From NCBI GenBank assembly GCA_000004985.1, contig GG738971.1: a stretch of 16,246 bases of DNA; one strand, written 5' to 3'. Below are positions 1 through 16,246 of the stretch, piece by piece (position 1 is the first letter of the stretch; every line of letters begins with the position of its first letter). This DNA comes from Naegleria gruberi (lineage: Eukaryota). Below the pieces are notes generated by a model, which was not told the DNA's origin, did not search any database, and was given only the letters and a program-made list of their open reading frames with translations. Position numbers and translations under genes: made by a program.

Positions 1-804
1 ATTTTTGAGTTTAAAGTTATTAAGGTGCTTAACTTGTGAAATGTTAACACATTTGCCTATTTTCATCAAATGTTTCTTTCAATACTGTTGGTGGTCAATG
101 CCCATAGGGTAAAGAAAGATTCCCACAGTTTCTTTTTGGTATTGCTAGCATGGCAGAATCAAAATTAGAAATAAATTCTTTGAATTGTTGTCGAGTGATT
201 GTGGAAAATATATTCCAAATAATTTGATTATAAATTTATAAATTGGCGATCCAAAGACATGATTTTATTCGATTCCAATAATTTAATAATGATTATTTAT
301 GTGGTTGGAGATTTGAAAATTAACTTGGGAAAAGATAATTTCATAATAACGATCCAACCAATTAGCTTCCAGGATGAAAATTAACATGATATCATGTTGA
401 GATGATGATAATGAACATTGGAGATAATTTCAAAAAGTGAAATCAACAATATTTGTTAATTCCAATTAGGTTGAACATGTTCTCGGAAGGAGTTCTTCTT
501 CTTTTCCGTTGCTCATCATCACTGATAGGTTTGTTTTAATTTCATCTTCATCAATTGTTCAATTCCAATTCTCTGTTCAACTATTACTTCAGTGATGATA
601 AGAAACTTGAACCTCCTGAAAACACTTTCAACTTGTCAACACCATCCTCCAATGAACCTTTTTCAAACCTTATAGTGCTATTGTGCACGAATCTTTATTG
701 GAAACAAAGACTAAACATGGAATTTTCAACGTTCGTAATGCACAACAACAAAAGGTTCGAAAGTTTGTGTTGATGGAGAACACCACTTCAACAATTCAAA
801 AAAT

Positions 805-1120
805 ATGCAACAACAACATTCTTTGAAAGTTTCCATAATAAAATGTACTGACCTGCCTAAAGTTGACTTGTTGGGATCATGTGATGCGTATGTGCAGGTG
901 TGGGTTGCTCACTCAGATCCAAACAAATTTAAACAAGCACAGACTGATAATGAGGAGGGAATTAAACAGACAAGAGTGATTACTAGTTTAAATCCAGAAT
1001 TTAATGAACAATTTCAATTCAAATTTCCTCAAGTCAATTCTGGTATGGAGAAGAAAGATCCAATGGATAAATATTTGGTTGTGAGAGTGGTGGATAAGAA
1101 TGCCATATTGAAGGATGAAG
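805..1120 (+). CDS. Exon 1 of a gene encoding a protein with an N-terminal C2 domain. The start codon is at 805, and the exon ends in phase 1 immediately before a GT donor.
   Basis: The ATG at 805 sits in an A-rich context. The translation MQQQHSLKVSIIKCTDLPKVDLLGSCDAYVQVWV...TRVITSLNPEFNEQFQFKF...KYLVVRVVDKNAILKDE matches the C2-domain consensus (L.V.V..A..L...D..G.SDPYV.V ... T.v.....P.wNE.F.F ... L...V.D.d). A GT follows at 1121. Confidence 0.7.
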
Positions 1121-1172
1121 GTTCGTTTAAATTTATATATATTGGAAAGTATTGATTGACTTGTTTCTCAAG
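1121..1172 (+). other. A 52-nt spliceosomal intron (GTTCGT...TTGTTTCTCAAG) within the C2-domain gene.
   Basis: GT/AG boundaries with a pyrimidine-rich 3' end. Removing it joins ...AILKDE to VIGFVMIQFFGLNLKVGKPLRRTYPLIDAKSGSIELCFEAVP in frame, restoring the conserved C2 DE.IG / G.I.L.L.F.P strands. Unspliced, the frame hits a stop at 1153. Confidence 0.65.
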
Positions 1173-1299
1173 TTATTGGATTTGTAATGATACAATTTTT
1201 TGGATTGAATTTAAAGGTGGGAAAACCATTGAGAAGAACCTACCCATTAATTGATGCCAAATCTGGAAGTATTGAATTGTGTTTTGAAGCAGTTCCAAG
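1173..1299 (+). CDS. Exon 2 (partial) of the C2-domain gene. It runs into the N-masked block, so the 3' end is not visible.
   Basis: The open frame continues from the splice junction to the edge of the N run. The encoded strand matches the C-terminal beta-strands of a C2 domain. Confidence 0.65.
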
Positions 1300-4200
1300 N
1301 NNNNNNNNNNNNNNNNNNNNNNNNNNNNNNNNNNNNNNNNNNNNNNNNNNNNNNNNNNNNNNNNNNNNNNNNNNNNNNNNNNNNNNNNNNNNNNNNNNNN
1401 NNNNNNNNNNNNNNNNNNNNNNNNNNNNNNNNNNNNNNNNNNNNNNNNNNNNNNNNNNNNNNNNNNNNNNNNNNNNNNNNNNNNNNNNNNNNNNNNNNNN
1501 NNNNNNNNNNNNNNNNNNNNNNNNNNNNNNNNNNNNNNNNNNNNNNNNNNNNNNNNNNNNNNNNNNNNNNNNNNNNNNNNNNNNNNNNNNNNNNNNNNNN
1601 NNNNNNNNNNNNNNNNNNNNNNNNNNNNNNNNNNNNNNNNNNNNNNNNNNNNNNNNNNNNNNNNNNNNNNNNNNNNNNNNNNNNNNNNNNNNNNNNNNNN
1701 NNNNNNNNNNNNNNNNNNNNNNNNNNNNNNNNNNNNNNNNNNNNNNNNNNNNNNNNNNNNNNNNNNNNNNNNNNNNNNNNNNNNNNNNNNNNNNNNNNNN
1801 NNNNNNNNNNNNNNNNNNNNNNNNNNNNNNNNNNNNNNNNNNNNNNNNNNNNNNNNNNNNNNNNNNNNNNNNNNNNNNNNNNNNNNNNNNNNNNNNNNNN
1901 NNNNNNNNNNNNNNNNNNNNNNNNNNNNNNNNNNNNNNNNNNNNNNNNNNNNNNNNNNNNNNNNNNNNNNNNNNNNNNNNNNNNNNNNNNNNNNNNNNNN
2001 NNNNNNNNNNNNNNNNNNNNNNNNNNNNNNNNNNNNNNNNNNNNNNNNNNNNNNNNNNNNNNNNNNNNNNNNNNNNNNNNNNNNNNNNNNNNNNNNNNNN
2101 NNNNNNNNNNNNNNNNNNNNNNNNNNNNNNNNNNNNNNNNNNNNNNNNNNNNNNNNNNNNNNNNNNNNNNNNNNNNNNNNNNNNNNNNNNNNNNNNNNNN
2201 NNNNNNNNNNNNNNNNNNNNNNNNNNNNNNNNNNNNNNNNNNNNNNNNNNNNNNNNNNNNNNNNNNNNNNNNNNNNNNNNNNNNNNNNNNNNNNNNNNNN
2301 NNNNNNNNNNNNNNNNNNNNNNNNNNNNNNNNNNNNNNNNNNNNNNNNNNNNNNNNNNNNNNNNNNNNNNNNNNNNNNNNNNNNNNNNNNNNNNNNNNNN
2401 NNNNNNNNNNNNNNNNNNNNNNNNNNNNNNNNNNNNNNNNNNNNNNNNNNNNNNNNNNNNNNNNNNNNNNNNNNNNNNNNNNNNNNNNNNNNNNNNNNNN
2501 NNNNNNNNNNNNNNNNNNNNNNNNNNNNNNNNNNNNNNNNNNNNNNNNNNNNNNNNNNNNNNNNNNNNNNNNNNNNNNNNNNNNNNNNNNNNNNNNNNNN
2601 NNNNNNNNNNNNNNNNNNNNNNNNNNNNNNNNNNNNNNNNNNNNNNNNNNNNNNNNNNNNNNNNNNNNNNNNNNNNNNNNNNNNNNNNNNNNNNNNNNNN
2701 NNNNNNNNNNNNNNNNNNNNNNNNNNNNNNNNNNNNNNNNNNNNNNNNNNNNNNNNNNNNNNNNNNNNNNNNNNNNNNNNNNNNNNNNNNNNNNNNNNNN
2801 NNNNNNNNNNNNNNNNNNNNNNNNNNNNNNNNNNNNNNNNNNNNNNNNNNNNNNNNNNNNNNNNNNNNNNNNNNNNNNNNNNNNNNNNNNNNNNNNNNNN
2901 NNNNNNNNNNNNNNNNNNNNNNNNNNNNNNNNNNNNNNNNNNNNNNNNNNNNNNNNNNNNNNNNNNNNNNNNNNNNNNNNNNNNNNNNNNNNNNNNNNNN
3001 NNNNNNNNNNNNNNNNNNNNNNNNNNNNNNNNNNNNNNNNNNNNNNNNNNNNNNNNNNNNNNNNNNNNNNNNNNNNNNNNNNNNNNNNNNNNNNNNNNNN
3101 NNNNNNNNNNNNNNNNNNNNNNNNNNNNNNNNNNNNNNNNNNNNNNNNNNNNNNNNNNNNNNNNNNNNNNNNNNNNNNNNNNNNNNNNNNNNNNNNNNNN
3201 NNNNNNNNNNNNNNNNNNNNNNNNNNNNNNNNNNNNNNNNNNNNNNNNNNNNNNNNNNNNNNNNNNNNNNNNNNNNNNNNNNNNNNNNNNNNNNNNNNNN
3301 NNNNNNNNNNNNNNNNNNNNNNNNNNNNNNNNNNNNNNNNNNNNNNNNNNNNNNNNNNNNNNNNNNNNNNNNNNNNNNNNNNNNNNNNNNNNNNNNNNNN
3401 NNNNNNNNNNNNNNNNNNNNNNNNNNNNNNNNNNNNNNNNNNNNNNNNNNNNNNNNNNNNNNNNNNNNNNNNNNNNNNNNNNNNNNNNNNNNNNNNNNNN
3501 NNNNNNNNNNNNNNNNNNNNNNNNNNNNNNNNNNNNNNNNNNNNNNNNNNNNNNNNNNNNNNNNNNNNNNNNNNNNNNNNNNNNNNNNNNNNNNNNNNNN
3601 NNNNNNNNNNNNNNNNNNNNNNNNNNNNNNNNNNNNNNNNNNNNNNNNNNNNNNNNNNNNNNNNNNNNNNNNNNNNNNNNNNNNNNNNNNNNNNNNNNNN
3701 NNNNNNNNNNNNNNNNNNNNNNNNNNNNNNNNNNNNNNNNNNNNNNNNNNNNNNNNNNNNNNNNNNNNNNNNNNNNNNNNNNNNNNNNNNNNNNNNNNNN
3801 NNNNNNNNNNNNNNNNNNNNNNNNNNNNNNNNNNNNNNNNNNNNNNNNNNNNNNNNNNNNNNNNNNNNNNNNNNNNNNNNNNNNNNNNNNNNNNNNNNNN
3901 NNNNNNNNNNNNNNNNNNNNNNNNNNNNNNNNNNNNNNNNNNNNNNNNNNNNNNNNNNNNNNNNNNNNNNNNNNNNNNNNNNNNNNNNNNNNNNNNNNNN
4001 NNNNNNNNNNNNNNNNNNNNNNNNNNNNNNNNNNNNNNNNNNNNNNNNNNNNNNNNNNNNNNNNNNNNNNNNNNNNNNNNNNNNNNNNNNNNNNNNNNNN
4101 NNNNNNNNNNNNNNNNNNNNNNNNNNNNNNNNNNNNNNNNNNNNNNNNNNNNNNNNNNNNNNNNNNNNNNNNNNNNNNNNNNNNNNNNNNNNNNNNNNNN

Positions 4201-6460
4201 NNNNNNNNNNNNNNNNNNNNNNNNNNNNNNNNNNNNNNNNNNNNNNNNNNNNNNNNNNNNNNNNNNNNNNNNNNNNNNNNNNNNNNNNNNNNNNNNNNNN
4301 NNNNNNNNNNNNNNNNNNNNNNNNNNNNNNNNNNNNNNNNNNNNNNNNNNNNNNNNNNNNNNNNNNNNNNNNNNNNNNNNNNNNNNNNNNNNNNNNNNNN
4401 NNNNNNNNNNNNNNNNNNNNNNNNNNNNNNNNNNNNNNNNNNNNNNNNNNNNNNNNNNNNNNNNNNNNNNNNNNNNNNNNNNNNNNNNNNNNNNNNNNNN
4501 NNNNNNNNNNNNNNNNNNNNNNNNNNNNNNNNNNNNNNNNNNNNNNNNNNNNNNNNNNNNNNNNNNNNNNNNNNNNNNNNNNNNNNNNNNNNNNNNNNNN
4601 NNNNNNNNNNNNNNNNNNNNNNNNNNNNNNNNNNNNNNNNNNNNNNNNNNNNNNNNNNNNNNNNNNNNNNNNNNNNNNNNNNNNNNNNNNNNNNNNNNNN
4701 NNNNNNNNNNNNNNNNNNNNNNNNNNNNNNNNNNNNNNNNNNNNNNNNNNNNNNNNNNNNNNNNNNNNNNNNNNNNNNNNNNNNNNNNNNNNNNNNNNNN
4801 NNNNNNNNNNNNNNNNNNNNNNNNNNNNNNNNNNNNNNNNNNNNNNNNNNNNNNNNNNNNNNNNNNNNNNNNNNNNNNNNNNNNNNNNNNNNNNNNNNNN
4901 NNNNNNNNNNNNNNNNNNNNNNNNNNNNNNNNNNNNNNNNNNNNNNNNNNNNNNNNNNNNNNNNNNNNNNNNNNNNNNNNNNNNNNNNNNNNNNNNNNNN
5001 NNNNNNNNNNNNNNNNNNNNNNNNNNNNNNNNNNNNNNNNNNNNNNNNNNNNNNNNNNNNNNNNNNNNNNNNNNNNNNNNNNNNNNNNNNNNNNNNNNNN
5101 NNNNNNNNNNNNNNNNNNNNNNNNNNNNNNNNNNNNNNNNNNNNNNNNNNNNNNNNNNNNNNNNNNNNNNNNNNNNNNNNNNNNNNNNNNNNNNNNNNNN
5201 NNNNNNNNNNNNNNNNNNNNNNNNNNNNNNNNNNNNNNNNNNNNNNNNNNNNNNNNNNNNNNNNNNNNNNNNNNNNNNNNNNNNNNNNNNNNNNNNNNNN
5301 NNNNNNNNNNNNNNNNNNNNNNNNNNNNNNNNNNNNNNNNNNNNNNNNNNNNNNNNNNNNNNNNNNNNNNNNNNNNNNNNNNNNNNNNNNNNNNNNNNNN
5401 NNNNNNNNNNNNNNNNNNNNNNNNNNNNNNNNNNNNNNNNNNNNNNNNNNNNNNNNNNNNNNNNNNNNNNNNNNNNNNNNNNNNNNNNNNNNNNNNNNNN
5501 NNNNNNNNNNNNNNNNNNNNNNNNNNNNNNNNNNNNNNNNNNNNNNNNNNNNNNNNNNNNNNNNNNNNNNNNNNNNNNNNNNNNNNNNNNNNNNNNNNNN
5601 NNNNNNNNNNNNNNNNNNNNNNNNNNNNNNNNNNNNNNNNNNNNNNNNNNNNNNNNNNNNNNNNNNNNNNNNNNNNNNNNNNNNNNNNNNNNNNNNNNNN
5701 NNNNNNNNNNNNNNNNNNNNNNNNNNNNNNNNNNNNNNNNNNNNNNNNNNNNNNNNNNNNNNNNNNNNNNNNNNNNNNNNNNNNNNNNNNNNNNNNNNNN
5801 NNNNNNNNNNNNNNNNNNNNNNNNNNNNNNNNNNNNNNNNNNNNNNNNNNNNNNNNNNNNNNNNNNNNNNNNNNNNNNNNNNNNNNNNNNNNNNNNNNNN
5901 NNNNNNNNNNNNNNNNNNNNNNNNNNNNNNNNNNNNNNNNNNNNNNNNNNNNNNNNNNNNNNNNNNNNNNNNNNNNNNNNNNNNNNNNNNNNNNNNNNNN
6001 NNNNNNNNNNNNNNNNNNNNNNNNNNNNNNNNNNNNNNNNNNNNNNNNNNNNNNNNNNNNNNNNNNNNNNNNNNNNNNNNNNNNNNNNNNNNNNNNNNNN
6101 NNNNNNNNNNNNNNNNNNNNNNNNNNNNNNNNNNNNNNNNNNNNNNNNNNNNNNNNNNNNNNNNNNNNNNNNNNNNNNNNNNNNNNNNNNNNNNNNNNNN
6201 NNNNNNNNNNNNNNNNNNNNNNNNNNNNNNNNNNNNNNNNNNNNNNNNNNNNNNNNNNNNNNNNNNNNNNNNNNNNNNNNNNNNNNNNNNNNNNNNNNNN
6301 NNNNNNNNNNNNNNNNNNNNNNNNNNNNNNNNNNNNNNNNNNNNNNNNNNNNNNNNNNNNNNNNNNNNNNNNNNNNNNNNNNNNNNNNNNNNNNNNNNNN
6401 NNNNNNNNNNNNNNNNNNNNNNNNNNNNNNNNNNNNNNNNNNNNNNNNNNNNNNNNNNNN
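1300..6460. other. N-masked block or assembly gap of 5161 nt. Nothing can be inferred here. The giant X-filled ORFs in the track are artefacts.
   Basis: A contiguous run of n characters. Confidence 1.
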
Positions 6461-8452
6461 ATTGTTCAAGTTATAATAATGTTTATTGGTCTGTTAGTTT
6501 ATTGCAAATGAGGGAAGATTCTGAAATTCATGGAAATATTTTGGCCACAGAAGTGACAGCTTCGAATTCAAAAATTTATGGAACTCTGATTATACCAGAT
6601 TCGGCAACGATGGTAACTATATTCGAAACTACTCAGTTCATGAATTTTACTAATTGGGATCCTTATTCACCATTTGTTGATTCGAAATGTATTTCTTCTC
6701 AATCAGTAGTTTCGTCTAATGTTTCTTCCAATTCGACTGTGGTTACAAACAGTTCAGTTTCAGTCAATCAAACTATTATTAATTCCAACTCGTCAATGAT
6801 TAAGAACAATACTGTTTACAATAGTACAGTATTAAATAATTCCACATTGAATAATTATTCATCAATAGTTAACACTACTCAAGTTTCTAATAATATTACA
6901 GTTGGTAATTCAACAACTTTATCAAATTCTACAAACGTATTGAATAATTCCTCAATGAGTGGTAATTCGACCTTTTCCAATTCTACTAATTATGGAAATG
7001 GCTCACTTTCGAATACAACACAAGTGGTTTCTAATAATGTTACAGTTGGTAATTCAACAACTTTATCAAATTCTACAAAAGTAATGAATAATTCCTCAAT
7101 GAATGGTAATTCAACATTTTCCAATTCTACTAATTATGGAAATGGCTCACTTTCGAATACAACACAGGTAGTTTCTAATAATAATACAGTTGGTAATTCT
7201 TCAAATTTATCAAATACTACGATTGTACTGAATAATTCCTCAATGGAAAGTAATTCTTCACAAACAATTTCCAATTCCACTGTTGCCAATACTACAAATA
7301 TTCACGGAAATGACTCACTGTCGAATACAACGCAAAATGTTGCTAATAATAATACACTAGGAAATTCCACACAATTACTGAATATTTCAATGAACAGCAA
7401 TAGTACAAGCAATTATTCCAGTATTACCAACTCTACTAATTATGGAAATGAATCATTTGTGAATTCAACAAATAATTCAGTGAACAGCACTACTAATTCT
7501 ACTTTTATGGGAAATAGTTCAAATATTTCACAACAAGTGAATACAACCACAAATTCATCAATTGGAGTTGTTGATAACGAAACGACTATTCTTATGAATG
7601 AAACAAATGTTTCGAATAATAGCATTGTTGAAACTAATCAAACTCTGAATAATTCACAAATTGTTAACGAAACATCAACAGAATCCAATAATAATGGAAC
7701 AATTCAAAACAACTCTTCCCAAACTATTATTTCCAATAATTCATCCATTGTTAACGAAACTTCCAATACTTCTAATACTACAGAACTAATTTCTAATAAC
7801 ACAATAAGTGATTCAAATAACACATTTATCAATCAGTCAACTGTGGAACATCAAAATTCAACACTTAATCAAACTCTAATTAACAATCAAACTACTTTTG
7901 GAAATAGTTCAGTAATTGAAGTTCAAAACCAGGTCAATCAAACATCAAATATCTCTAACAGCACAAACAACACTTTAATTATTAATTCAACAATTATTTC
8001 TAACAATACAATTTCCAATTATAGTAATTCAGTATTACCAAGTAATGTCACAAATAATTCGACATTATCAATCAATAATACAATTCTAAATAATCAAAGC
8101 ACTGTAAATTCAACAACATCTAACCTGAATAATGAAACATTCAATAATCAGAATTCCAGTTTAAATAATTGTGACAGACATGTCAATTGCTCAAATCATG
8201 GCGATTGTAATTCAGAAGGACAATGCATATGTTCTTCAAATTATGAAGAAGGTTTCTGGTCTGGAACTAAGTGTGAATTTTGTGCGATTAACTTTTATGG
8301 AAAATTATGTAATACTAAAATTGTTGGTCCAGCTTTGATTTCACCAGATTTTACAGGCGTTACATTTATATTACATTCTGCACAGATGAATGATTCAATT
8401 CCTTGTGAAAAGATTATCAATCCACTTGATTTATCTATTTTTGGAAGTAAGC
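6461..8452 (+). CDS. Internal fragment, open at both ends into masked sequence, of a secreted or surface glycoprotein. It is Asn/Ser/Thr-rich and hyper-sequon-dense, with tandem repeats and a C-terminal EGF-like module.
   Basis: A 664-codon open frame without stops from the mask edge at 6461 to the mask edge at 8452. The track's start at 6502 is a TTG; the first ATG is at 6508 and there is no signal peptide, so the real 5' end is probably upstream in the masked region. There are dozens of N-x-S/T sequons (NST, NSS, NTT, NIS, NVT, NQT, NET and others), repeated about 48-aa units, and an 8-Cys module CDRHVNCSNHGDCNSEGQCICSSNYEEGFWSGTKCEFCAINFYGKLC. Confidence 0.75.
6883..7338 (+). repeat. Coding tandem repeat of three nearly identical 144-bp (48-aa) units starting at 6883, 7027 and 7171. 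More degenerate copies lie upstream (about 6790) and downstream (7339 to about 7510).
   Basis: Units 1 and 2 differ at about 8 of 144 nt. Unit 3 is about 80% identical. The encoded unit is VSNN[IVN]TVGNSTTLSNSTNVLNNSSM[SN]GNSTFSNSTNYGNGSLSNTTQV. Confidence 0.85.
8170..8310 (+). other. EGF-like module with eight cysteines (laminin/tenascin-type spacing) at the C-terminal end of the visible glycoprotein fragment.
   Basis: The cysteine pattern C-x5-C-x5-C-x5-C-x-C-x13-C-x2-C-x8-C, with the conserved G and aromatic positions (HGDC, GQCIC, GFWSG, YG..C). Confidence 0.7.
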
Positions 8453-11400
8453 NNNNNNNNNNNNNNNNNNNNNNNNNNNNNNNNNNNNNNNNNNNNNNNN
8501 NNNNNNNNNNNNNNNNNNNNNNNNNNNNNNNNNNNNNNNNNNNNNNNNNNNNNNNNNNNNNNNNNNNNNNNNNNNNNNNNNNNNNNNNNNNNNNNNNNNN
8601 NNNNNNNNNNNNNNNNNNNNNNNNNNNNNNNNNNNNNNNNNNNNNNNNNNNNNNNNNNNNNNNNNNNNNNNNNNNNNNNNNNNNNNNNNNNNNNNNNNNN
8701 NNNNNNNNNNNNNNNNNNNNNNNNNNNNNNNNNNNNNNNNNNNNNNNNNNNNNNNNNNNNNNNNNNNNNNNNNNNNNNNNNNNNNNNNNNNNNNNNNNNN
8801 NNNNNNNNNNNNNNNNNNNNNNNNNNNNNNNNNNNNNNNNNNNNNNNNNNNNNNNNNNNNNNNNNNNNNNNNNNNNNNNNNNNNNNNNNNNNNNNNNNNN
8901 NNNNNNNNNNNNNNNNNNNNNNNNNNNNNNNNNNNNNNNNNNNNNNNNNNNNNNNNNNNNNNNNNNNNNNNNNNNNNNNNNNNNNNNNNNNNNNNNNNNN
9001 NNNNNNNNNNNNNNNNNNNNNNNNNNNNNNNNNNNNNNNNNNNNNNNNNNNNNNNNNNNNNNNNNNNNNNNNNNNNNNNNNNNNNNNNNNNNNNNNNNNN
9101 NNNNNNNNNNNNNNNNNNNNNNNNNNNNNNNNNNNNNNNNNNNNNNNNNNNNNNNNNNNNNNNNNNNNNNNNNNNNNNNNNNNNNNNNNNNNNNNNNNNN
9201 NNNNNNNNNNNNNNNNNNNNNNNNNNNNNNNNNNNNNNNNNNNNNNNNNNNNNNNNNNNNNNNNNNNNNNNNNNNNNNNNNNNNNNNNNNNNNNNNNNNN
9301 NNNNNNNNNNNNNNNNNNNNNNNNNNNNNNNNNNNNNNNNNNNNNNNNNNNNNNNNNNNNNNNNNNNNNNNNNNNNNNNNNNNNNNNNNNNNNNNNNNNN
9401 NNNNNNNNNNNNNNNNNNNNNNNNNNNNNNNNNNNNNNNNNNNNNNNNNNNNNNNNNNNNNNNNNNNNNNNNNNNNNNNNNNNNNNNNNNNNNNNNNNNN
9501 NNNNNNNNNNNNNNNNNNNNNNNNNNNNNNNNNNNNNNNNNNNNNNNNNNNNNNNNNNNNNNNNNNNNNNNNNNNNNNNNNNNNNNNNNNNNNNNNNNNN
9601 NNNNNNNNNNNNNNNNNNNNNNNNNNNNNNNNNNNNNNNNNNNNNNNNNNNNNNNNNNNNNNNNNNNNNNNNNNNNNNNNNNNNNNNNNNNNNNNNNNNN
9701 NNNNNNNNNNNNNNNNNNNNNNNNNNNNNNNNNNNNNNNNNNNNNNNNNNNNNNNNNNNNNNNNNNNNNNNNNNNNNNNNNNNNNNNNNNNNNNNNNNNN
9801 NNNNNNNNNNNNNNNNNNNNNNNNNNNNNNNNNNNNNNNNNNNNNNNNNNNNNNNNNNNNNNNNNNNNNNNNNNNNNNNNNNNNNNNNNNNNNNNNNNNN
9901 NNNNNNNNNNNNNNNNNNNNNNNNNNNNNNNNNNNNNNNNNNNNNNNNNNNNNNNNNNNNNNNNNNNNNNNNNNNNNNNNNNNNNNNNNNNNNNNNNNNN
10001 NNNNNNNNNNNNNNNNNNNNNNNNNNNNNNNNNNNNNNNNNNNNNNNNNNNNNNNNNNNNNNNNNNNNNNNNNNNNNNNNNNNNNNNNNNNNNNNNNNNN
10101 NNNNNNNNNNNNNNNNNNNNNNNNNNNNNNNNNNNNNNNNNNNNNNNNNNNNNNNNNNNNNNNNNNNNNNNNNNNNNNNNNNNNNNNNNNNNNNNNNNNN
10201 NNNNNNNNNNNNNNNNNNNNNNNNNNNNNNNNNNNNNNNNNNNNNNNNNNNNNNNNNNNNNNNNNNNNNNNNNNNNNNNNNNNNNNNNNNNNNNNNNNNN
10301 NNNNNNNNNNNNNNNNNNNNNNNNNNNNNNNNNNNNNNNNNNNNNNNNNNNNNNNNNNNNNNNNNNNNNNNNNNNNNNNNNNNNNNNNNNNNNNNNNNNN
10401 NNNNNNNNNNNNNNNNNNNNNNNNNNNNNNNNNNNNNNNNNNNNNNNNNNNNNNNNNNNNNNNNNNNNNNNNNNNNNNNNNNNNNNNNNNNNNNNNNNNN
10501 NNNNNNNNNNNNNNNNNNNNNNNNNNNNNNNNNNNNNNNNNNNNNNNNNNNNNNNNNNNNNNNNNNNNNNNNNNNNNNNNNNNNNNNNNNNNNNNNNNNN
10601 NNNNNNNNNNNNNNNNNNNNNNNNNNNNNNNNNNNNNNNNNNNNNNNNNNNNNNNNNNNNNNNNNNNNNNNNNNNNNNNNNNNNNNNNNNNNNNNNNNNN
10701 NNNNNNNNNNNNNNNNNNNNNNNNNNNNNNNNNNNNNNNNNNNNNNNNNNNNNNNNNNNNNNNNNNNNNNNNNNNNNNNNNNNNNNNNNNNNNNNNNNNN
10801 NNNNNNNNNNNNNNNNNNNNNNNNNNNNNNNNNNNNNNNNNNNNNNNNNNNNNNNNNNNNNNNNNNNNNNNNNNNNNNNNNNNNNNNNNNNNNNNNNNNN
10901 NNNNNNNNNNNNNNNNNNNNNNNNNNNNNNNNNNNNNNNNNNNNNNNNNNNNNNNNNNNNNNNNNNNNNNNNNNNNNNNNNNNNNNNNNNNNNNNNNNNN
11001 NNNNNNNNNNNNNNNNNNNNNNNNNNNNNNNNNNNNNNNNNNNNNNNNNNNNNNNNNNNNNNNNNNNNNNNNNNNNNNNNNNNNNNNNNNNNNNNNNNNN
11101 NNNNNNNNNNNNNNNNNNNNNNNNNNNNNNNNNNNNNNNNNNNNNNNNNNNNNNNNNNNNNNNNNNNNNNNNNNNNNNNNNNNNNNNNNNNNNNNNNNNN
11201 NNNNNNNNNNNNNNNNNNNNNNNNNNNNNNNNNNNNNNNNNNNNNNNNNNNNNNNNNNNNNNNNNNNNNNNNNNNNNNNNNNNNNNNNNNNNNNNNNNNN
11301 NNNNNNNNNNNNNNNNNNNNNNNNNNNNNNNNNNNNNNNNNNNNNNNNNNNNNNNNNNNNNNNNNNNNNNNNNNNNNNNNNNNNNNNNNNNNNNNNNNNN

Positions 11401-11876
11401 NNNNNNNNNNNNNNNNNNNNNNNNNNNNNNNNNNNNNNNNNNNNNNNNNNNNNNNNNNNNNNNNNNNNNNNNNNNNNNNNNNNNNNNNNNNNNNNNNNNN
11501 NNNNNNNNNNNNNNNNNNNNNNNNNNNNNNNNNNNNNNNNNNNNNNNNNNNNNNNNNNNNNNNNNNNNNNNNNNNNNNNNNNNNNNNNNNNNNNNNNNNN
11601 NNNNNNNNNNNNNNNNNNNNNNNNNNNNNNNNNNNNNNNNNNNNNNNNNNNNNNNNNNNNNNNNNNNNNNNNNNNNNNNNNNNNNNNNNNNNNNNNNNNN
11701 NNNNNNNNNNNNNNNNNNNNNNNNNNNNNNNNNNNNNNNNNNNNNNNNNNNNNNNNNNNNNNNNNNNNNNNNNNNNNNNNNNNNNNNNNNNNNNNNNNNN
11801 NNNNNNNNNNNNNNNNNNNNNNNNNNNNNNNNNNNNNNNNNNNNNNNNNNNNNNNNNNNNNNNNNNNNNNNNNNNN
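8453..11876. other. N-masked block or assembly gap of 3424 nt. It hides the 3' part of the glycoprotein gene and the 3' two-thirds of the NirK gene.
   Basis: A contiguous run of n characters. Confidence 1.
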
Positions 11877-12623
11877 ATACGAATGTTCCATTAATTTTGG
11901 ATCATCATCTGATGGTTCACAATAGAATTCACTTTGCATGACATAGAATTCCTTATCTACTTTTGGTAATCCCTCTTCTGGCTCAACTAACATTAATCCA
12001 TACATGCCATTACTTATGTGTGAAGGAACTGGACCTGCAGCACAGTGATAGATAAATAAACCTGAAGTTAATAATTTGAAAAATCCTGTTTTTTCTTCAT
12101 CTTTTTCAGCCAATAACATTTCTGCACCTCCTCCTGGTCCTGTCACACAGTGAAAATCAATATTGTGAGCCATACCGGTTTCGTCCAAGTTTAGGTAATT
12201 GACTTGCATGACATCTCCAACTCTTGCTCTGATAAATGGTCCAGGAACTGTTCCATTAAATGTCCAATATGGATACTTGTACTGTTTGCTGATTGGTTTC
12301 ACTTCAATTGTGGTATCTAGATTAACAACTAATTGAACTGGATAATCACGGTCAATTGGTGGAGGAATTCCAGGAGCTTTTGTTAAAATTGCTTCAACAA
12401 CTGGCAACTCCAAATTTAATTCAGGAGCTTTCTTGAATTTCTTCATCATATTTTCAGGAAACAAACTATGTTTCTTTTGTGTTTCTTGTGCTTCAAGTAA
12501 ACTATCACATTGGTATTTGTAGTATTGATAAACACCTGTTCCAACAGCACAGGTTAGACCTAGGGATAATGCAATGTCAAAAGTCTTTGGTTTGACAGTT
12601 CTTAGTCTGTGGAACAGTTTCAT
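11877..12623 (-). CDS. nirK: Copper-containing nitrite reductase (NirK, NO-forming). This is the 5' portion only: the N-terminal targeting/anchor extension plus cupredoxin domain I. Domain II lies in masked sequence.
   Basis: The ATG is at 12623-12621 on the minus strand. The translation contains the diagnostic NirK motifs WTFNGTVPGP, HNIDFH (T1Cu His and T2Cu His), YHCAAGPVPSHISNGMYG (His-Cys, His at +9 and Met at +5, which are the T2/T1 ligands) and KEFYVMQSEFY. These align with bacterial NirK (TFNGSVPGP / HNIDFHAATGALGGGA / [24 protein letters not shown] / KIYYVGEQDFY). The first roughly 90 aa (MKLFHRLRTVKPK + hydrophobic FDIALSLGLTCAVGTGVY...) have no bacterial counterpart. Confidence 0.9.
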
Positions 12624-12717
12624 TAGTGTTGTATTGTTATTTTTTAATTGAAATGTTGAATAAGACTTTTTTTATGATTCTTTGAATTTCCATTTGTCCT
12701 CAAACATAATCCCATTA

Positions 12718-12785
12718 CTGTGGTTACGCAATGAAGTGCAAGCAATTCTACAATGAAATGCAAGCAATTATTTTTTGAACTGCAA
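12718..12785. repeat. Left terminal inverted repeat (68 bp). It contains TGCAAGCAATT subrepeats at 12737-12747 and 12759-12769, and a degenerate third copy at 12781-12791.
   Basis: Its reverse complement equals 15859-15926 at 68 of 68 positions, checked base by base. Confidence 0.9.
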
Positions 12786-12959
12786 CGAATAATTTAATGA
12801 ATTGAAAGTTTCTTGAACCACAATTCTTAAAATAGATCAAAGAGAAGTCACACTGTAAGATCAAGCTGTAGTTCTGCTTGTTTCGAATATTGATAATGAA
12901 TTTGTTTATTATATAAGATATTTTGTATTGTTATTAAGATGATTGATCACTCTTCATGT

Positions 12960-15722
12960 TCATTGAATTTTCTTTCCGAAAATTGAATCCTCCCATGACT
13001 CATTAAATAATTCATCTAATTCTTCGTCATAATCGCCAAGCTCAATTTTAGAGCTCTTCTTGGGTTCAGATTGAAAACCTTCTGATTCCGAAAGTGGGCT
13101 TTGTGGTTCAAATTCTACTACATGTAAATGTTGCAATCTAGCAACAAGTATAGCTCTGTAATTTGAAATAGAAAATGGTTTGGTCATAATATCGACGGCA
13201 TCAGATAGTGAAAATCCTGCTGAAAGAAAATCCATTAGTAATACACAATAATCACCACAATGATTTCCATCCACTTGAATTTTTTTTTGTAATGTTTTTC
13301 GAACAGTCTTTGGTTTTACAATAAATGATGGCAACATTTCAAATAATTCACTAGTCTCTGATTCTATCACTGAAAAATCCTTAGCGAAAGAATCAAAAAG
13401 AAACCAATCAGTGGATTGACAATCATAGATTAGTAAGTACCAGTGTAATGATCTTGCCACAGGAAAAATTATAAATCCTTTTGATGTAAATTTCATACTC
13501 TTTGGTAAGTTTGTTTCTATGAATTTTTTGGATTGGTTAGTAACTCTTTGAGAGAAATCAGACGGTATGTATTGTAAATATTGTGAGCTGATTTTGGAAA
13601 AACAAATTCCAAATATATCAAAAGTATTTCCAGGTAAGAATACAGTGTCATCTTTGATAGTCTCCAATGCCTCAGTAGATAAAGTGATTGAACAAGCAAT
13701 TGTTTCTGTTGAAAGAACGTACAATTGTAGATTGGCAGCATTTTGTTGGATGTTATAGTTAAATTCTGTTTTGTTTTGTATGTGAAGTATTATTTTAGAT
13801 ATTTGTTCTACCTGTTTTTGGTCAAAATTTTCTTTCATGGAATCACTATCAATCCAAGGATTGTTTACATCATCTAAGATGGGATCTTGATCTAATTTCT
13901 CATCTGTCTCTACCTTAACTGATGGTGTAGGTAGTTCTACATAGAATTGACCAATACACATAGGATTAAATTCTCTGATATATAAATCATACAAATCATT
14001 ATTCATTTTCAGTGAAGCTCTGACATACTTCAAGTATTCCTCTTCTGAATCATAATTCCAAATATCCATTAAACATTTTCTAAAACTGTTTACAATCACA
14101 TCTGGATTCATGTTAGAAATAATCTGCTCAAATGCTGCATTTCTTGATTTTCTATCAGAATTAGAATTATTCTTTTTCCAATCAGCTAATTCTCTTTTTG
14201 CATATCTGAAACACATATTATCCAATGGTGATTGATGGTGCCCACCTACAGGAAGTAAAATGTTAATTCTATTATGTTGTTTCAAAATCTTTTGAACTGA
14301 TTTACACTTATGATGAGAGAGATTATCCCATAATAAAATGTCTCCTTCTTTTGAATTAGGAATATAAACTTTTTCAACCCATTGCTCAATATGTTCAATA
14401 TGAACACCAGCAATTTTTTCCTCAACAGTTACCTTATTACCATTAATAGTTGATTTCTTTCCTGGCACTGACTCAACAATAGACACTGGTAATACACCTC
14501 CTTCTGCCGTTACAGCAACTAAAAAAGTATCCTTAATATCATCAGCCAATTGTAAAACAACTGCATCATCGTCCTTGATTGGAGTATTTGTTCTTTCCGT
14601 CGCCTTAGTATTTGTTCCAGTTTCATCAAAAACCACAATTTTACTTCTATCAATGGATTTTAAATTTCTAAACATTATTGCTGCATAGAAGCAATAATAA
14701 TAGTAGGTTCTATATAATTGCTCATAAGCTGTTTCAATTCTTTCTCTCTTGGTAATTGTTGTTTTGATCTTCCTTTTATAAAGAAACTTCTTGGAAAATT
14801 TGGAAATATAATCTACTGAAGGTGTTTTCTTTAATCCTGCAACTTCCTTCATTATTTCTCCAAGTCTTATATTACTAACTTGTTTTTTCTCACTCCGTTC
14901 CTTACGAGTAATATCAATAACCTGTAAAATTTGGTCTTTCAATAATAATGGAGGTGGGTGACCACGTTCAACCTTTAATGTTAGTTCATTCCTCTTGCAT
15001 GCCGATAAATATCTGCTAAATTGTGAAGGTGAGATATTATTTTGTTTAGCAAATTCCTGTTGTGATCCACGGTCGGGTGTTGAATATTGTTCTTTATACT
15101 TCTCAACAAGTTTAATTTGTTCTTCTCTTGTTTTTTGAACATAACCAACTTTTCTTTTGTTTTTAAACCCTATCAATACTATTTTATCATCAGGATTTTC
15201 CTTTTTTTCTGTCTCCTCCAGGTTTACCAGTTTTGCTTTCTTTGCTTGACTTTCATTGTATGTTTCTTGATTCCGTTCAACAATTAATAGGGCTTTTTTT
15301 TTGATGTTGTCTTCGAATGACTCATCTCTTTCATCCGTCTCTTCCTCAACAGAAGAACAAATTCTAGTTACCAATTTTGCTACCAGAGCATCTTTTCTAA
15401 GATTACCTCCTGTCTCTCCAAATTCACTCTTCAAAAACTCCTTCAAAAACTTGACATTTTTCATTGTCAATTGATCACGGATTGCCTCTTCCACATTCTC
15501 AAACTTTCGTTTTGTTCCTTTTTTTAGCTTCTTTGGTTTTTCTTCTTTTTTCTTGCCTGGTGTTTTTTCATCTTTCTTTTTACTGGGTGTGTTATCTGGT
15601 TGATCTTGTGTACAGGTCCATGAAGGAACTTGAGATACTGAAGGTAGCAAATCTATTAAATTGCTATAGCTGGAGAAGCTTTGTGGTGAAGTGTCATAGC
15701 TACTCGATTGCTTGTTTGACAT
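12960..15722 (-). CDS. Transposase fused to a Ulp1-like protease. From the N terminus: a basic NLS-like region, CENP-B/pogo-type HTH domains, a DDE_1 catalytic core, and a C-terminal Ulp1/C48 cysteine peptidase domain. It is 920 aa long and ends with a TGA stop.
   Basis: Residues 47-73 are KKKDEKTPGKKKEEKPKKLKKGTKRK. HTH-like segments lie around aa 195-300. The DDE_1 motifs are VVFDETG (D366), ILLWDNLSHH (D466) and QSPLDNMCFRYAK (D501), which gives D-D-35-D spacing and the pogo DNxxH / QPLD signatures. The Ulp1 motifs are SLHWYLLIYD (H760), WFLFDS (D777) and KIQVDGNHCGDYC (Q816, C822), with His-Asp spacing of 17 and Gln-Cys spacing of 6 as in Ulp1. Confidence 0.9.
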   Translation of the reverse strand: MSNKQSSSYDTSPQSFSSYSNLIDLLPSVSQVPSWTCTQDQPDNTPSKKKDEKTPGKKKEEKPKKLKKGTKRKFENVEEAIRDQLTMKNVKFLKEFLKSEFGETGGNLRKDALVAKLVTRICSSVEEETDERDESFEDNIKKKALLIVERNQETYNESQAKKAKLVNLEETEKKENPDDKIVLIGFKNKRKVGYVQKTREEQIKLVEKYKEQYSTPDRGSQQEFAKQNNISPSQFSRYLSACKRNELTLKVERGHPPPLLLKDQILQVIDITRKERSEKKQVSNIRLGEIMKEVAGLKKTPSVDYISKFSKKFLYKRKIKTTITKRERIETAYEQLYRTYYYYCFYAAIMFRNLKSIDRSKIVVFDETGTNTKATERTNTPIKDDDAVVLQLADDIKDTFLVAVTAEGGVLPVSIVESVPGKKSTINGNKVTVEEKIAGVHIEHIEQWVEKVYIPNSKEGDILLWDNLSHHKCKSVQKILKQHNRINILLPVGGHHQSPLDNMCFRYAKRELADWKKNNSNSDRKSRNAAFEQIISNMNPDVIVNSFRKCLMDIWNYDSEEEYLKYVRASLKMNNDLYDLYIREFNPMCIGQFYVELPTPSVKVETDEKLDQDPILDDVNNPWIDSDSMKENFDQKQVEQISKIILHIQNKTEFNYNIQQNAANLQLYVLSTETIACSITLSTEALETIKDDTVFLPGNTFDIFGICFSKISSQYLQYIPSDFSQRVTNQSKKFIETNLPKSMKFTSKGFIIFPVARSLHWYLLIYDCQSTDWFLFDSFAKDFSVIESETSELFEMLPSFIVKPKTVRKTLQKKIQVDGNHCGDYCVLLMDFLSAGFSLSDAVDIMTKPFSISNYRAILVARLQHLHVVEFEPQSPLSESEGFQSEPKKSSKIELGDYDEELDELFNESWEDSIFGKKIQ
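13113..13625 (-). other. Ulp1 / SUMO-protease-like cysteine peptidase domain (C48 family) at the transposase C-terminus.
   Basis: The catalytic His-Asp-(Gln)-Cys arrangement HWYLL...FLFDS...QVDGNHCGDYC has canonical spacing and is followed by an acidic tail. Confidence 0.75.
14088..14690 (-). other. DDE_1 (pogo/Tigger/Fot1-type) catalytic domain of the transposase.
   Basis: The D366 / D466 / D501 triad lies within the characteristic motifs DETG, LLxDNxxxH and LPxxxxxxxSPLD. Confidence 0.8.
14823..15140 (-). other. Helix-turn-helix DNA-binding region of the transposase, of the CENP-B/pogo N-terminal type (two HTH units).
   Basis: Segments QQEFAKQNNISPSQFSRYLSACKR and HPPPLLLKDQILQVIDITRKERSEKKQVSNIRLGEIMKEV resemble psq/HTH_Tnp_Tc5-like helices. 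This is assigned by pattern, not by alignment. Confidence 0.5.
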
Positions 15723-15797
15723 TTTATAAATTTATTGCTTCTTCTGCTGATTGGAAGTTTTGATGTGTGTTTTGCAAGTTTCTTGATCAAAGTGGAA

Positions 15798-15804
15798 ATT
15801 TATA
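15798..15804 (-). promoter_or_regulatory. Candidate TATA box (TATAAAT on the minus strand) about 76-82 nt upstream of the transposase ATG, inside the element.
   Basis: The motif appears on visual inspection in the 136-bp region between the right TIR and the ATG. This region is AT-rich, so specificity is low. Confidence 0.2.
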
Positions 15805-15858
15805 TTTAGACTTTCTTGCAGTTCGTCAGCAAGTAATTGTACTACATTGTAGAATTGC

Positions 15859-15926
15859 TTGCAGTTCAAAAAATAATTGCTTGCATTTCATTGTAGAATT
15901 GCTTGCACTTCATTGCGTAACCACAG
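15859..15926. repeat. Right terminal inverted repeat (68 bp). It contains AATTGCTTGCA subrepeats at 15853-15863, 15875-15885 and 15897-15907, which is 22-bp phasing.
   Basis: It is a perfect reverse complement of 12718-12785. The internal 19-bp CATTGTAGAATTGCTTGCA occurs at 15845-15863 and 15889-15907. Confidence 0.9.
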
Positions 15927-16246
15927 TAGTACAGAGAACGGCTGTTTTTTAAAATATATAAAAAAGGTTCTGAGCGATGGATTATGATTTATTGGATTAT
16001 GAATTGATATTTAGAGTATTTGGATAATTGGATGTTGCTCATTGTTAAGTTCAGTTTAATTTTTGATTAATTTGAATTCAAAAAATTGGCCAAGTCTCCA
16101 GGGAATCGATCTCGTAGGATTCTGGTGTTGTTGGCTTGTTGTTTATTCAATTCAATGACAAACTGTATGGGGTTCACATAAAAAATTCCCAGAGATGGGT
16201 TGAGCTTTGCTTAATTGCTTGTGCATGTAATGAATAGTTACTGAAA

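What the first reader, a model, noticed from the sequence alone, without database searches (positions are those of the whole stretch)
12624..15970. Transposon inserted about 93 bp upstream of the NirK start codon, in the same orientation, possibly splitting the promoter
The element's left end (TA at 12716-12717) lies only about 93 nt 5' of the nirK ATG at 12623, on the coding strand. The transposase ORF points toward nirK and ends 245 bp before the element boundary, so read-through or outward transcription from the TE could drive or perturb nirK. Just outside the other TE end, on the nirK strand, is a TATATAT motif (15954-15962). After conceptual excision this would lie about 120-130 nt upstream of the ATG, a plausible position for the original TATA box, which is now displaced 3.2 kb from its gene. 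The perfect TIRs suggest the insertion is recent and possibly polymorphic.
Basis: inference. Interest (0 to 1): 0.6.

Follow-up and report, generated by a model that had tools for sequence, protein, structure and literature searches.

The report
Mariner-like transposon upstream of amoeba nirK
A recently active 3.2-kb mariner-type jumping gene sits 92 bases upstream of one copy of the copper nitrite reductase gene of the amoeba Naegleria gruberi. This is an ordinary kind of event, and its effect on the gene is unknown because a conserved promoter-proximal motif still sits next to the gene.

Summary
The window is a whole 16,246-bp Naegleria gruberi scaffold.

- **The gene:** positions 11877-12623(-) encode the first 249 residues of a copper nitrite reductase (NirK). 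The rest lies in an N gap.
- **The element:** a 3,209-bp element (12718-15926) lies 92 nt upstream. It has TA on both sides, 68-bp perfect terminal inverted repeats with 22-bp subrepeats, and an intact 920-aa ORF on the nirK strand.
- **The protein:** it is a mariner-like DD34D transposase. Mos1 is the best match by sequence profile and by fold. A C-terminal Ulp1/SENP-like cysteine peptidase domain is fused to it.
- **Recent activity:** a second copy, 916/920 identical, lies on another scaffold.

- **Conserved motif:** AGGACAAATGG is the only upstream motif shared by three Naegleria nirK loci (≥11-mer shared in 1 of 3,000 shuffles). It lies at -77, between the element and the gene, 15 nt from the insertion.
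- **The TATATAT:** it is at the stated place but is no more frequent than chance.
- **Second nirK:** a copy differing at 2 of 249 residues sits on a 381-kb scaffold. No transposase of this ≥90%-identity cluster is recorded there. A heterozygous insertion is plausible but unproven.
- **Expression:** no data could be obtained.

Verdict: a real, ordinary transposon insertion of low to moderate interest.

The parts
11877..12623 (-). Visible 5' part of nirK (codons 1-249). It has an N-terminal presequence or transmembrane-like extension and the first cupredoxin domain. The rest of the gene is hidden in the N run 8453-11876.
   Evidence: Translation. Pfam Cu-oxidase_3. PDB AniA/NirK at E = 9e-55 with copper-ligand motifs aligned. 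99% identical to N. gruberi XP_002674759.
12624..12715 (-). The 92 nt between the nirK ATG and the transposon's target TA. This is the retained proximal upstream region, probably 5'UTR plus core promoter.
   Evidence: Direct reading. It contains the conserved motif.
12690..12700 (-). AGGACAAATGG, an 11-mer conserved upstream of nirK in three Naegleria loci. It sits at -77 here, -86 in N. lovaniensis, and -128 in L004 from a re-called ATG. It is a candidate nirK-specific cis element and lies 15 nt from the insertion point.
   Evidence: It is unique in the window and in loci L001 and L004, always on the nirK strand. It is the only invariant block in the alignment. A three-way common substring of 11 or more occurred in 1 of 3,000 dinucleotide shuffles.
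12716..12717 (.). TA target-site duplication, nirK-proximal copy.
12718..12785 (.). Terminal inverted repeat at the 3' end of the element, perfect for 68 nt. It contains two copies of TGCAAGCAA (12737 and 12759) within 22-bp tandem subrepeats (12729-12801).
12905..12910 (-). AATAAA about 50 nt downstream of the transposase stop codon. This is a candidate poly(A) signal inside the element.
   Evidence: consensus match only.
12960..15722 (-). 920-aa transposase gene, without introns. Its parts are a Lys-rich N-terminus, an SAP-like helix pair, HTH domains, a DD34D catalytic core (D366, D466, D501) and a C-terminal clan-CE (Ulp1/SENP-like) peptidase domain (H760, D777, Q816, C822). It corresponds to XP_002668708 / NAEGRDRAFT_54650.
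   Evidence: Weak Pfam DDE_3 hit. Family profile against Mos1 at E = 9e-7 with the three Asp aligned. AlphaFold2 core pLDDT above 90, and Foldseek top hits are all Mos1 or SETMAR. C-terminal profile against SENP8 at E = 1.1e-6. Relatives pass the Pfam Peptidase_C48 threshold.
15859..15926 (.). Terminal inverted repeat at the 5' end of the element, perfect for 68 nt. 22-bp subrepeats (3.6 copies) span 15837-15915.
15927..15928 (.). TA target-site duplication, distal copy.
15929..16246 (-). Distal flank of 318 bp, running to the scaffold end. It has no long ORF in any frame. It is presumably the former upstream region of nirK, now 3.2 kb away.
   Evidence: Six-frame translation. No similarity to the N. 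lovaniensis neighbouring genes.
15954..15960 (-).
   Evidence: Present, but not enriched. No positional counterpart in the other species.
16017..16037 (-). CAACATCCAATTATCCAAATA, a weak second block similar to N. lovaniensis CACCATCCATTTTTCCAAATA upstream of nirK. If real, the transposon has separated it from the gene.
   Evidence: 18 of 21 identical; best local alignment p = 0.034 against shuffles. Weak evidence.

Best explanation
An autonomous cut-and-paste DNA transposon of the IS630-Tc1-mariner superfamily has inserted at a TA dinucleotide 92 nt upstream of the start codon of one nirK copy in Naegleria gruberi NEG-M. The element is 3,209 bp long, has DD34D catalytic spacing, and its transposase is fused to a Ulp1/SENP-like peptidase.

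Shown: the element's anatomy, its family, its position and orientation, and that the family has at least two almost identical intact copies, so the insertion is evolutionarily recent.

Inferred:
1. The insertion landed 15 nt upstream of a nirK-specific conserved motif (AGGACAAATGG at -77). The proximal promoter and 5'UTR therefore stayed attached to the gene, while everything further upstream moved 3.2 kb away. The moved sequence includes a weakly conserved block and the TATATAT. The expected effect is altered regulation of this copy, not a knock-out.
2. The 4.4-kb contig carrying it has only 841 bp and 320 bp of flank (TA included) around the element. It is most likely the transposon-bearing haplotype of a heterozygous site. 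The 99%-identical nirK on the 381-kb scaffold would then be the empty allele.
For: - TA duplication, 68-bp perfect repeats and 22-bp subrepeats.
- Intact 920-aa ORF.
- Catalytic D366/D466/D501 aligned to Mos1 D156/D249/D284.
- Family profile hits Mos1, SETMAR and Sleeping Beauty.
- The AlphaFold2 core is confident and its best Foldseek hits are all Mos1, E = 1e-9.
- Second copy 916/920 identical on a 196,593-bp scaffold.
- A 98%-identical fragment occurs in a metagenome whose Naegleria DNA is only 93% identical elsewhere.
- NirK identity.
- The conserved 11-mer is unique per locus, on the nirK strand, at -77, -86 and -128 in three species. Shuffles reach this in 1 of 3,000.
- A second nirK differs at only A18V and Q49P and lies on a 381,539-bp scaffold. 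The transposase cluster has members only on the 16,246-bp and 196,593-bp scaffolds.
- Naegleria is described as mainly a heterozygous diploid (PMC9928731).
Against: - No expression or transcription-start data exist here, so the effect on nirK is pure inference.
- The DNA of the 381-kb scaffold could not be fetched. The empty site is therefore not demonstrated, and allele versus paralogue is open.
- The C2-domain gene at the other end of the window has no counterpart among annotated N. gruberi proteins. This argues that the scaffold as a whole is not a simple duplicate haplotig.
- With two 99%-identical 3.2-kb copies and Sanger-length reads, the two flanks might have been joined through the repeat by the assembler.
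- Conservation of the distal block is weak (p = 0.034).
- The function of the 11-mer is unknown.
Confidence: 0.65

Rival explanations
1. The transposon split the nirK promoter and moved the original TATA box (TATATAT) 3.2 kb away. Transcription reading out of, or through, the element now drives or perturbs nirK.
For: Same orientation, with the 3' end of the transposase gene facing nirK about 240 nt from the element end. TATATAT would lie at -120 to -126 after excision. A weakly conserved block lies beyond the element.
Against: TATATAT is no more frequent than chance in this 32% G+C sequence. It is not matched in position in N. lovaniensis or L004. The one robustly conserved upstream motif is on the gene side of the insertion. 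An AATAAA follows the transposase stop codon inside the element. There is no transcript evidence.
Confidence: 0.15
2. The nirK in the window is a recently duplicated second locus (paralogue) rather than an allele. The transposon insertion is homozygous or fixed at that locus, and the 381-kb copy provides normal function.
For: The C2-domain gene 11 kb away in the same scaffold has no match among annotated N. gruberi proteins, so the scaffold contains unique sequence. The neighbours of nirK differ between Naegleria species, so the locus is mobile in evolution.
Against: Only 2 of 249 residues differ, which is compatible with allelic divergence. The contig holding nirK and the element is separated from the rest of the scaffold by a 3.4-kb gap. 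Its short flanks are typical of a haplotype-specific contig (inference).
Confidence: 0.25
3. Assembly artefact. The contig joins the nirK flank of one transposon copy to the distal flank of another copy through the 99%-identical 3.2-kb repeat, so the 'reconstituted upstream region' is chimeric.
For: At least two near-identical copies exist. The element is longer than a Sanger read. TA on both sides is uninformative because every insertion has it.
Against: The distal flank shares a block in the same order with the N. lovaniensis nirK upstream region (18 of 21, p = 0.034). The nirK-proximal junction itself would still be real.
Confidence: 0.1

Closest known systems
Mos1 / mariner (IS630-Tc1-mariner superfamily, DD34D)
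   Same: TA target duplication, terminal inverted repeats and a single intronless transposase gene. The three catalytic Asp have 34 residues between the second and third, aligned to Mos1 D156/D249/D284. Mos1 is the best structural match, including the N-terminal DNA-binding region.
   Different: The element is 3.2 kb rather than 1.3 kb. The repeats are 68 bp with 22-bp subrepeats rather than about 28 bp. The protein has 920 residues, with a Lys-rich/SAP-like N-terminus and a 250-residue C-terminal peptidase region. Sequence identity to Mos1 is about 13%. Pfam DDE_1 (pogo type) and DDE_3 score about equally in relatives, so the subfamily is not settled.
Transposases fused to Ulp1 (C48) or other deubiquitinase-type peptidases: Ginger1 elements, Mutator-like elements of plants and hydra, and an IS5-like/C19 fusion in Trichomonas (PMC2836005)
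   Same: A cysteine peptidase of the ubiquitin/SUMO-deconjugating type lies C-terminal to a DDE transposase. Some relatives of this family carry a UCH domain in the same position (P0133 and P0140).
   Different: Those published cases belong to the Ginger, Mutator and IS5-like groups. The 2010 survey I read does not list a Tc1/mariner-type carrier. I could not check Repbase.
Eukaryotic mitochondrial-type copper nitrite reductase (NirK), e.g. Fusarium oxysporum; class II AniA-like bacterial NirK
   Same: Cupredoxin domain with all type-1 and type-2 copper ligands visible in residues 150-215 and an N-terminal targeting-like extension. 60-77% identity to other protist, fungal and nematode NirK.
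   Different: Nothing unusual in the visible part. The C-terminal 140 residues are in the assembly gap.
Transposon insertions in 5' regulatory regions that change expression of the adjacent gene (a general, well-documented class; own knowledge)
   Same: A class II element lies within about 100 bp of a start codon.
   Different: No expression phenotype is known here.

Membership tests
IS630-Tc1-mariner (ITm) DNA transposons | TA target-site duplication flanking terminal inverted repeats | tested here: met
   TA|CTGTGG...CCACAG|TA, with 68 nt perfect. The boundary rests on this one copy only, because no DNA of a second full copy was available.
IS630-Tc1-mariner (ITm) DNA transposons | RNase-H-fold catalytic domain with a DDE/D triad at the family spacing | tested here: met
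   D366, D466 and D501 (34 residues between the last two) align to Mos1 D156/D249/D284. The profile hits Mos1 at E = 9e-7. Foldseek finds Mos1 at E = 1e-9, with TM 0.67-0.70 on the catalytic domain. Pfam DDE_3 on the protein itself scores 23.4 bits, below the 28.6 cut-off.
IS630-Tc1-mariner (ITm) DNA transposons | N-terminal paired helix-turn-helix DNA-binding domain | tested here: inconclusive
   Helical region 199-314 is modelled with high confidence. The full-length Mos1 alignment covers about 400 columns. Some relatives hit HTH_32 or HTH_23. There is no significant HTH hit for the protein itself.
IS630-Tc1-mariner (ITm) DNA transposons | Multiple copies, as evidence of mobility | tested here: met
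   Second 920-aa copy, 916/920 identical, on a 196,593-bp scaffold. A 98%-identical fragment occurs in ENA assembly ERZ929261.
Peptidase C48 (Ulp1/SENP), clan CE | Catalytic His-Asp-Cys triad with the oxyanion Gln in the conserved order (HW...DS...Q...CG) | tested here: met
   H760-W, D777-S, Q816 and C822-G align with the SENP8 catalytic motifs.
Peptidase C48 (Ulp1/SENP), clan CE | Significant match to the family model | tested here: inconclusive
   The window protein gives no Pfam C48 hit. Its relatives P0126 (21.4 bits) and P0142 (29.6 bits) pass the 20.7 cut-off. A four-sequence profile hits SENP8 at E = 1.1e-6, plus XopD and ChlaDub. The structure model of this domain has low confidence, pLDDT 50-70.
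Copper-containing nitrite reductase (NirK) | Two cupredoxin domains with type-1 and type-2 copper ligands | tested here: met
   The first domain and the ligands HNIDFH, H-C, H and M are present and aligned to AniA at E = 9e-55. The second domain lies in the N gap of the window, but it is present in the 99%-identical P0002.
TATA-box core promoter displaced by the insertion | A TATA element at a fixed distance upstream of the mapped transcription start, conserved in orthologues | tested here: not met
   No transcription start is known. TATATAT is not enriched and has no counterpart at a similar distance in N. lovaniensis or L004. Function is not testable with these tools.

The most novel reading that the evidence does not exclude
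The insertion is heterozygous in the sequenced clone and lies between two nirK-specific cis elements: a distal block at about -200 and the AGGACAAATGG motif at -77. One allele of this anaerobic-respiration gene would then be uncoupled from its upstream regulation. That would give a natural allele-specific test of Naegleria promoter architecture. Separately, the element would represent an undescribed clade of mariner-type transposons whose transposases carry ubiquitin-like-modifier peptidases (Ulp1-like or UCH) at the C-terminus.
Probability: 0.2. Interest if true: 0.45.

Novelty: new member of a known kind. Interest (0 to 1): 0.27.

Why it matters
If the insertion is heterozygous, it is a ready-made natural experiment. 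Two nirK alleles, distinguishable by A18V and Q49P, would differ by 3.2 kb of foreign DNA inserted 15 nt upstream of a conserved motif. This is in an organism where promoter structure is essentially unmapped and genetic tools are scarce. It also shows that N. gruberi harbours a mariner-type family that looks recently active. That family's transposase carries a SUMO/NEDD8-protease-like domain, which adds to the recurring, unexplained association between transposases and deubiquitinase-type peptidases. Otherwise it is one more transposon next to a gene.

Tried and rejected
- **Fetching N. gruberi DNA for the empty site.** Exact-protein look-ups for P0002 (the main nirK), P0001 and P0122 returned 'not on record'. 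The empty site could not be inspected.
- **Metagenome scans.** Scans for the proximal flank (25-mer) and for the repeat end (26-mer) found nothing.
- **Testing whether the scaffold is a haplotig of the 381-kb scaffold.** I searched its C2-domain gene. The only hit was an ENA metagenome protein, with no N. gruberi protein. That leaves the question open and mildly argues against a whole-scaffold haplotig.
- **Synteny with N. lovaniensis (L001).** Only nirK is shared; the neighbours are not.
- **Relative P0124 (locus L008).** No clear terminal repeats, so it gave no independent confirmation of TA or repeat boundaries.
- **The bacterial sigma-70 and terminator scan.** Not meaningful for a eukaryote, and the counts were near shuffle expectation.
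- **Rfam and tRNA scans of 11877-16246.** Nothing found.
- **Literature searches.** Locus tags and accessions returned zero papers. No paper held describes N. gruberi nirK regulation or Naegleria promoters. The genome paper (PMID 20211133) is not held.
- **The conserved motif's ATG as an upstream ORF or first exon.** Rejected as the explanation. The downstream peptides are not conserved, and the frame differs from the main ORF in N. lovaniensis and L004 (my own reading of the sequences).


Full report
**Where the window comes from.** The 920-aa ORF is 100% identical to a Naegleria gruberi predicted protein, XP_002668708 / NAEGRDRAFT_54650. Its only contig in the collection is 16,246 bp long, so the window is one whole small scaffold of the NEG-M assembly. 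More than half of it is N: 1300-6460 and 8453-11876. The finding lies in a contiguous 4,370-bp stretch, 11877-16246, at 32.6% G+C.

**Checking the observation.**
- Reading the sequence and the repeat search show TA at 12716-12717 and 15927-15928.
- These flank inverted repeats that are perfect for 68 nt (12718-12785 and 15859-15926). Similarity extends to 84 nt at 93%.
- Each end carries 22-bp tandem subrepeats around a TGCAAGCAA core: 2-3 copies on the left and 3.6 on the right. These are the expected transposase-binding sites (inference).
- The element is 3,209 bp long.
- Exactly 92 nt lie between the TA and the nirK ATG, whose A is at 12623 on the minus strand.
- The transposase ORF (12960-15722) is on the same strand, and its stop codon lies about 240 nt (12960 vs 12718) from the element end.
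- The TATATAT is at 15954-15960 and would lie at about -120 to -126 after excision.

**The gene.** Residues 1-249 translate without interruption.
- From residue 72 on they match AniA-type NirK structures at E = 9e-55. The copper-ligand motifs HNIDFH and YHCA...H...NGM are aligned.
- Pfam gives Cu-oxidase_3.
- The first 70 residues look like a targeting or membrane extension. They are not conserved in N. lovaniensis.
- The remaining 140 or so codons fall in the assembly gap.

**The element.**
- Pfam on the protein gives only a sub-threshold DDE_3 hit.
- An exhaustive HMMER search of 1.84 billion representatives found just 68 relatives. Of the 34 I aligned, 25 match DDE_1 and 25 match DDE_3.
- A profile of the family hits Mos1 mariner transposase (E = 9e-7), SETMAR and Sleeping Beauty.
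- The alignment places D366, D466 and D501 on Mos1 D156, D249 and D284. That is DD34D spacing.
- An AlphaFold2 model has pLDDT above 90 over residues 200-580. All of its top Foldseek hits are Mos1, at E = 1e-9. About 400 columns align to full-length Mos1, and the TM-score is 0.67-0.70 on the catalytic domain.
- With the TA duplication, this places the element in the IS630-Tc1-mariner superfamily.

**The C-terminal domain.**
- The C-terminal 250 residues are conserved in three relatives. Two of them pass the Pfam Peptidase_C48 threshold.
- A four-sequence profile hits SENP8 (E = 1.1e-6), XopD and ChlaDub. H760, D777, Q816 and C822 fall on the catalytic positions.
- The structure model of this domain has low confidence.
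- Two more distant relatives carry a UCH domain in the same position.
- Ulp1 and OTU domains are documented in Ginger1, Mutator-like and Helitron elements (PMC2836005). I found no report of one in a mariner-type element, but I could not consult Repbase.

**Recency.** The cluster of this protein contains a second 920-aa N. gruberi protein, NAEGRDRAFT_75468, on a 196,593-bp scaffold. It is 916/920 identical. A 177-aa fragment comes from ENA assembly ERZ929261. Its DNA is 98.2% identical to 12868-13626. Another contig of the same sample matches window 459-1299 at only 93.4%. Perfect repeats, an intact ORF and near-identical copies all point to recent activity.

**Is the promoter split?** I compared the upstream regions of nirK in N. 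lovaniensis (L001) and in an unnamed Naegleria-like Logan assembly (L004).
- In L004 the called start is too short. An in-frame ATG at 3875 restores the N-terminus.
- One motif, AGGACAAATGG, occurs exactly once in the window, once in L001 and once in L004. It is always on the nirK strand, at -77, -86 and -128 from the ATG.
- A three-way common substring of 11 or more arose in 1 of 3,000 dinucleotide-preserving shuffles.
- It is absent from the upstream regions of the other genes in those loci, so it looks nirK-specific rather than a generic core-promoter element.
- In N. gruberi it occupies 12700-12690, 15 nt inside the insertion point. The transposon did not separate it from the gene.
- Beyond the element, the distal flank shares CAACATCCAATTATCCAAATA with N. 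lovaniensis CACCATCCATTTTTCCAAATA, in the same order relative to the 11-mer. This is only p = 0.034.
- The TATATAT is not enriched and has no positional counterpart in the other species.

My reading is that the proximal element and probably the core promoter are retained, and that distal regulation may be displaced by 3.2 kb. An AATAAA about 50 nt after the transposase stop codon would favour termination inside the element rather than read-through. This is only a consensus match.

**Is it polymorphic?** The protein database holds a complete 389-aa N. gruberi NirK, XP_002674759 / NAEGRDRAFT_50708, on a 381,539-bp scaffold. It differs from the window copy only by A18V and Q49P. The transposase cluster has no member on a scaffold of that length.
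- The contig here has only 841 bp and 320 bp of flank (TA included) around the element. That is what a haplotype-specific contig of a heterozygous insertion would look like (inference).
- Naegleria is regarded as mainly a heterozygous diploid (PMC9928731).
- Against a simple haplotig, the C2-domain gene at 805-1299 has no annotated N. gruberi counterpart.
- I could not retrieve the 381-kb scaffold. Metagenome scans for the flank and the repeat end were empty.
- Allele, recent paralogue and repeat-mediated assembly chimera therefore all remain possible. I rank them about 0.65, 0.25 and 0.10.

**Comparison with what is known, and verdict.** A class II transposon near the 5' end of a gene is a well-known kind of event. 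NirK in Naegleria and other eukaryotes is already annotated. The element itself is a new member of the Tc1/mariner superfamily, and its peptidase fusion may be a noteworthy variant. Nothing here is categorically new, and no functional consequence can be shown from sequence. Its mechanistic interpretation is partly supported for recency and possible polymorphism, and weakened for the TATA box and the promoter split. Interest is low to moderate.

Noticed in passing
window 12690-12700 (-); L001 5915-5925; L004 3747-3757: An 11-mer, AGGACAAATGG, is conserved upstream of nirK in three Naegleria genomes and is unique in each locus. It is a candidate nirK-specific regulatory element of unknown function. 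It contains an ATG in all three, but the downstream peptides are not conserved.
   Followed up: partly
window 12960-13700 (-), protein residues about 675-920: The mariner-type transposase carries a C-terminal Ulp1/SENP-like (clan CE) peptidase domain with an intact H-D-Q-C set. More distant relatives (P0133, P0140) carry a UCH domain there instead. A mariner-type carrier is not listed in the 2010 survey of peptidase-bearing transposons (PMC2836005).
   Followed up: partly
window 1300-6460 and 8453-11876: Two long N runs (5,161 and 3,424 bases) make up 53% of the scaffold. They hide the 3' third of nirK and most of two other genes. ORFs listed across them are artefacts of N translation.
   Followed up: yes
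window 805-1120 + 1173-1299 (+): A C2-domain gene with a 52-nt GT-AG intron (1121-1172) runs into the first gap. It has no annotated N. gruberi protein in the database. Its only match is a 100%-identical segment of an ENA metagenome protein (P0191, sample ERZ929261), whose contig is 93% identical in DNA.
   Followed up: partly
window 6502-8452 (+), repeat at 6882-7256: A long Asn/Ser/Thr-rich ORF contains a 144-bp tandem repeat (2.6 copies, 90% identical). It ends in a Cys-rich, EGF-like stretch before the second gap. There is no Pfam hit.
   Followed up: no
L004 3875-4000: The called nirK start in the Logan contig (SRR29240419) appears about 126 nt too far downstream. An in-frame ATG at 3875 restores an N-terminal extension similar to that of N. 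lovaniensis.
   Followed up: partly
L005 3014-3322: The contig carrying the 72%-identical NirK P0005 (ENA ERZ27233573) has a small ORF with an IS66-type transposase hit right after nirK. The organism is unknown.
   Followed up: no
L003 1-70: The first 70 nt of the 832-bp ENA transposon fragment do not align to the window copy. The rest is 98% identical, so that copy may be rearranged or internally deleted.
   Followed up: no
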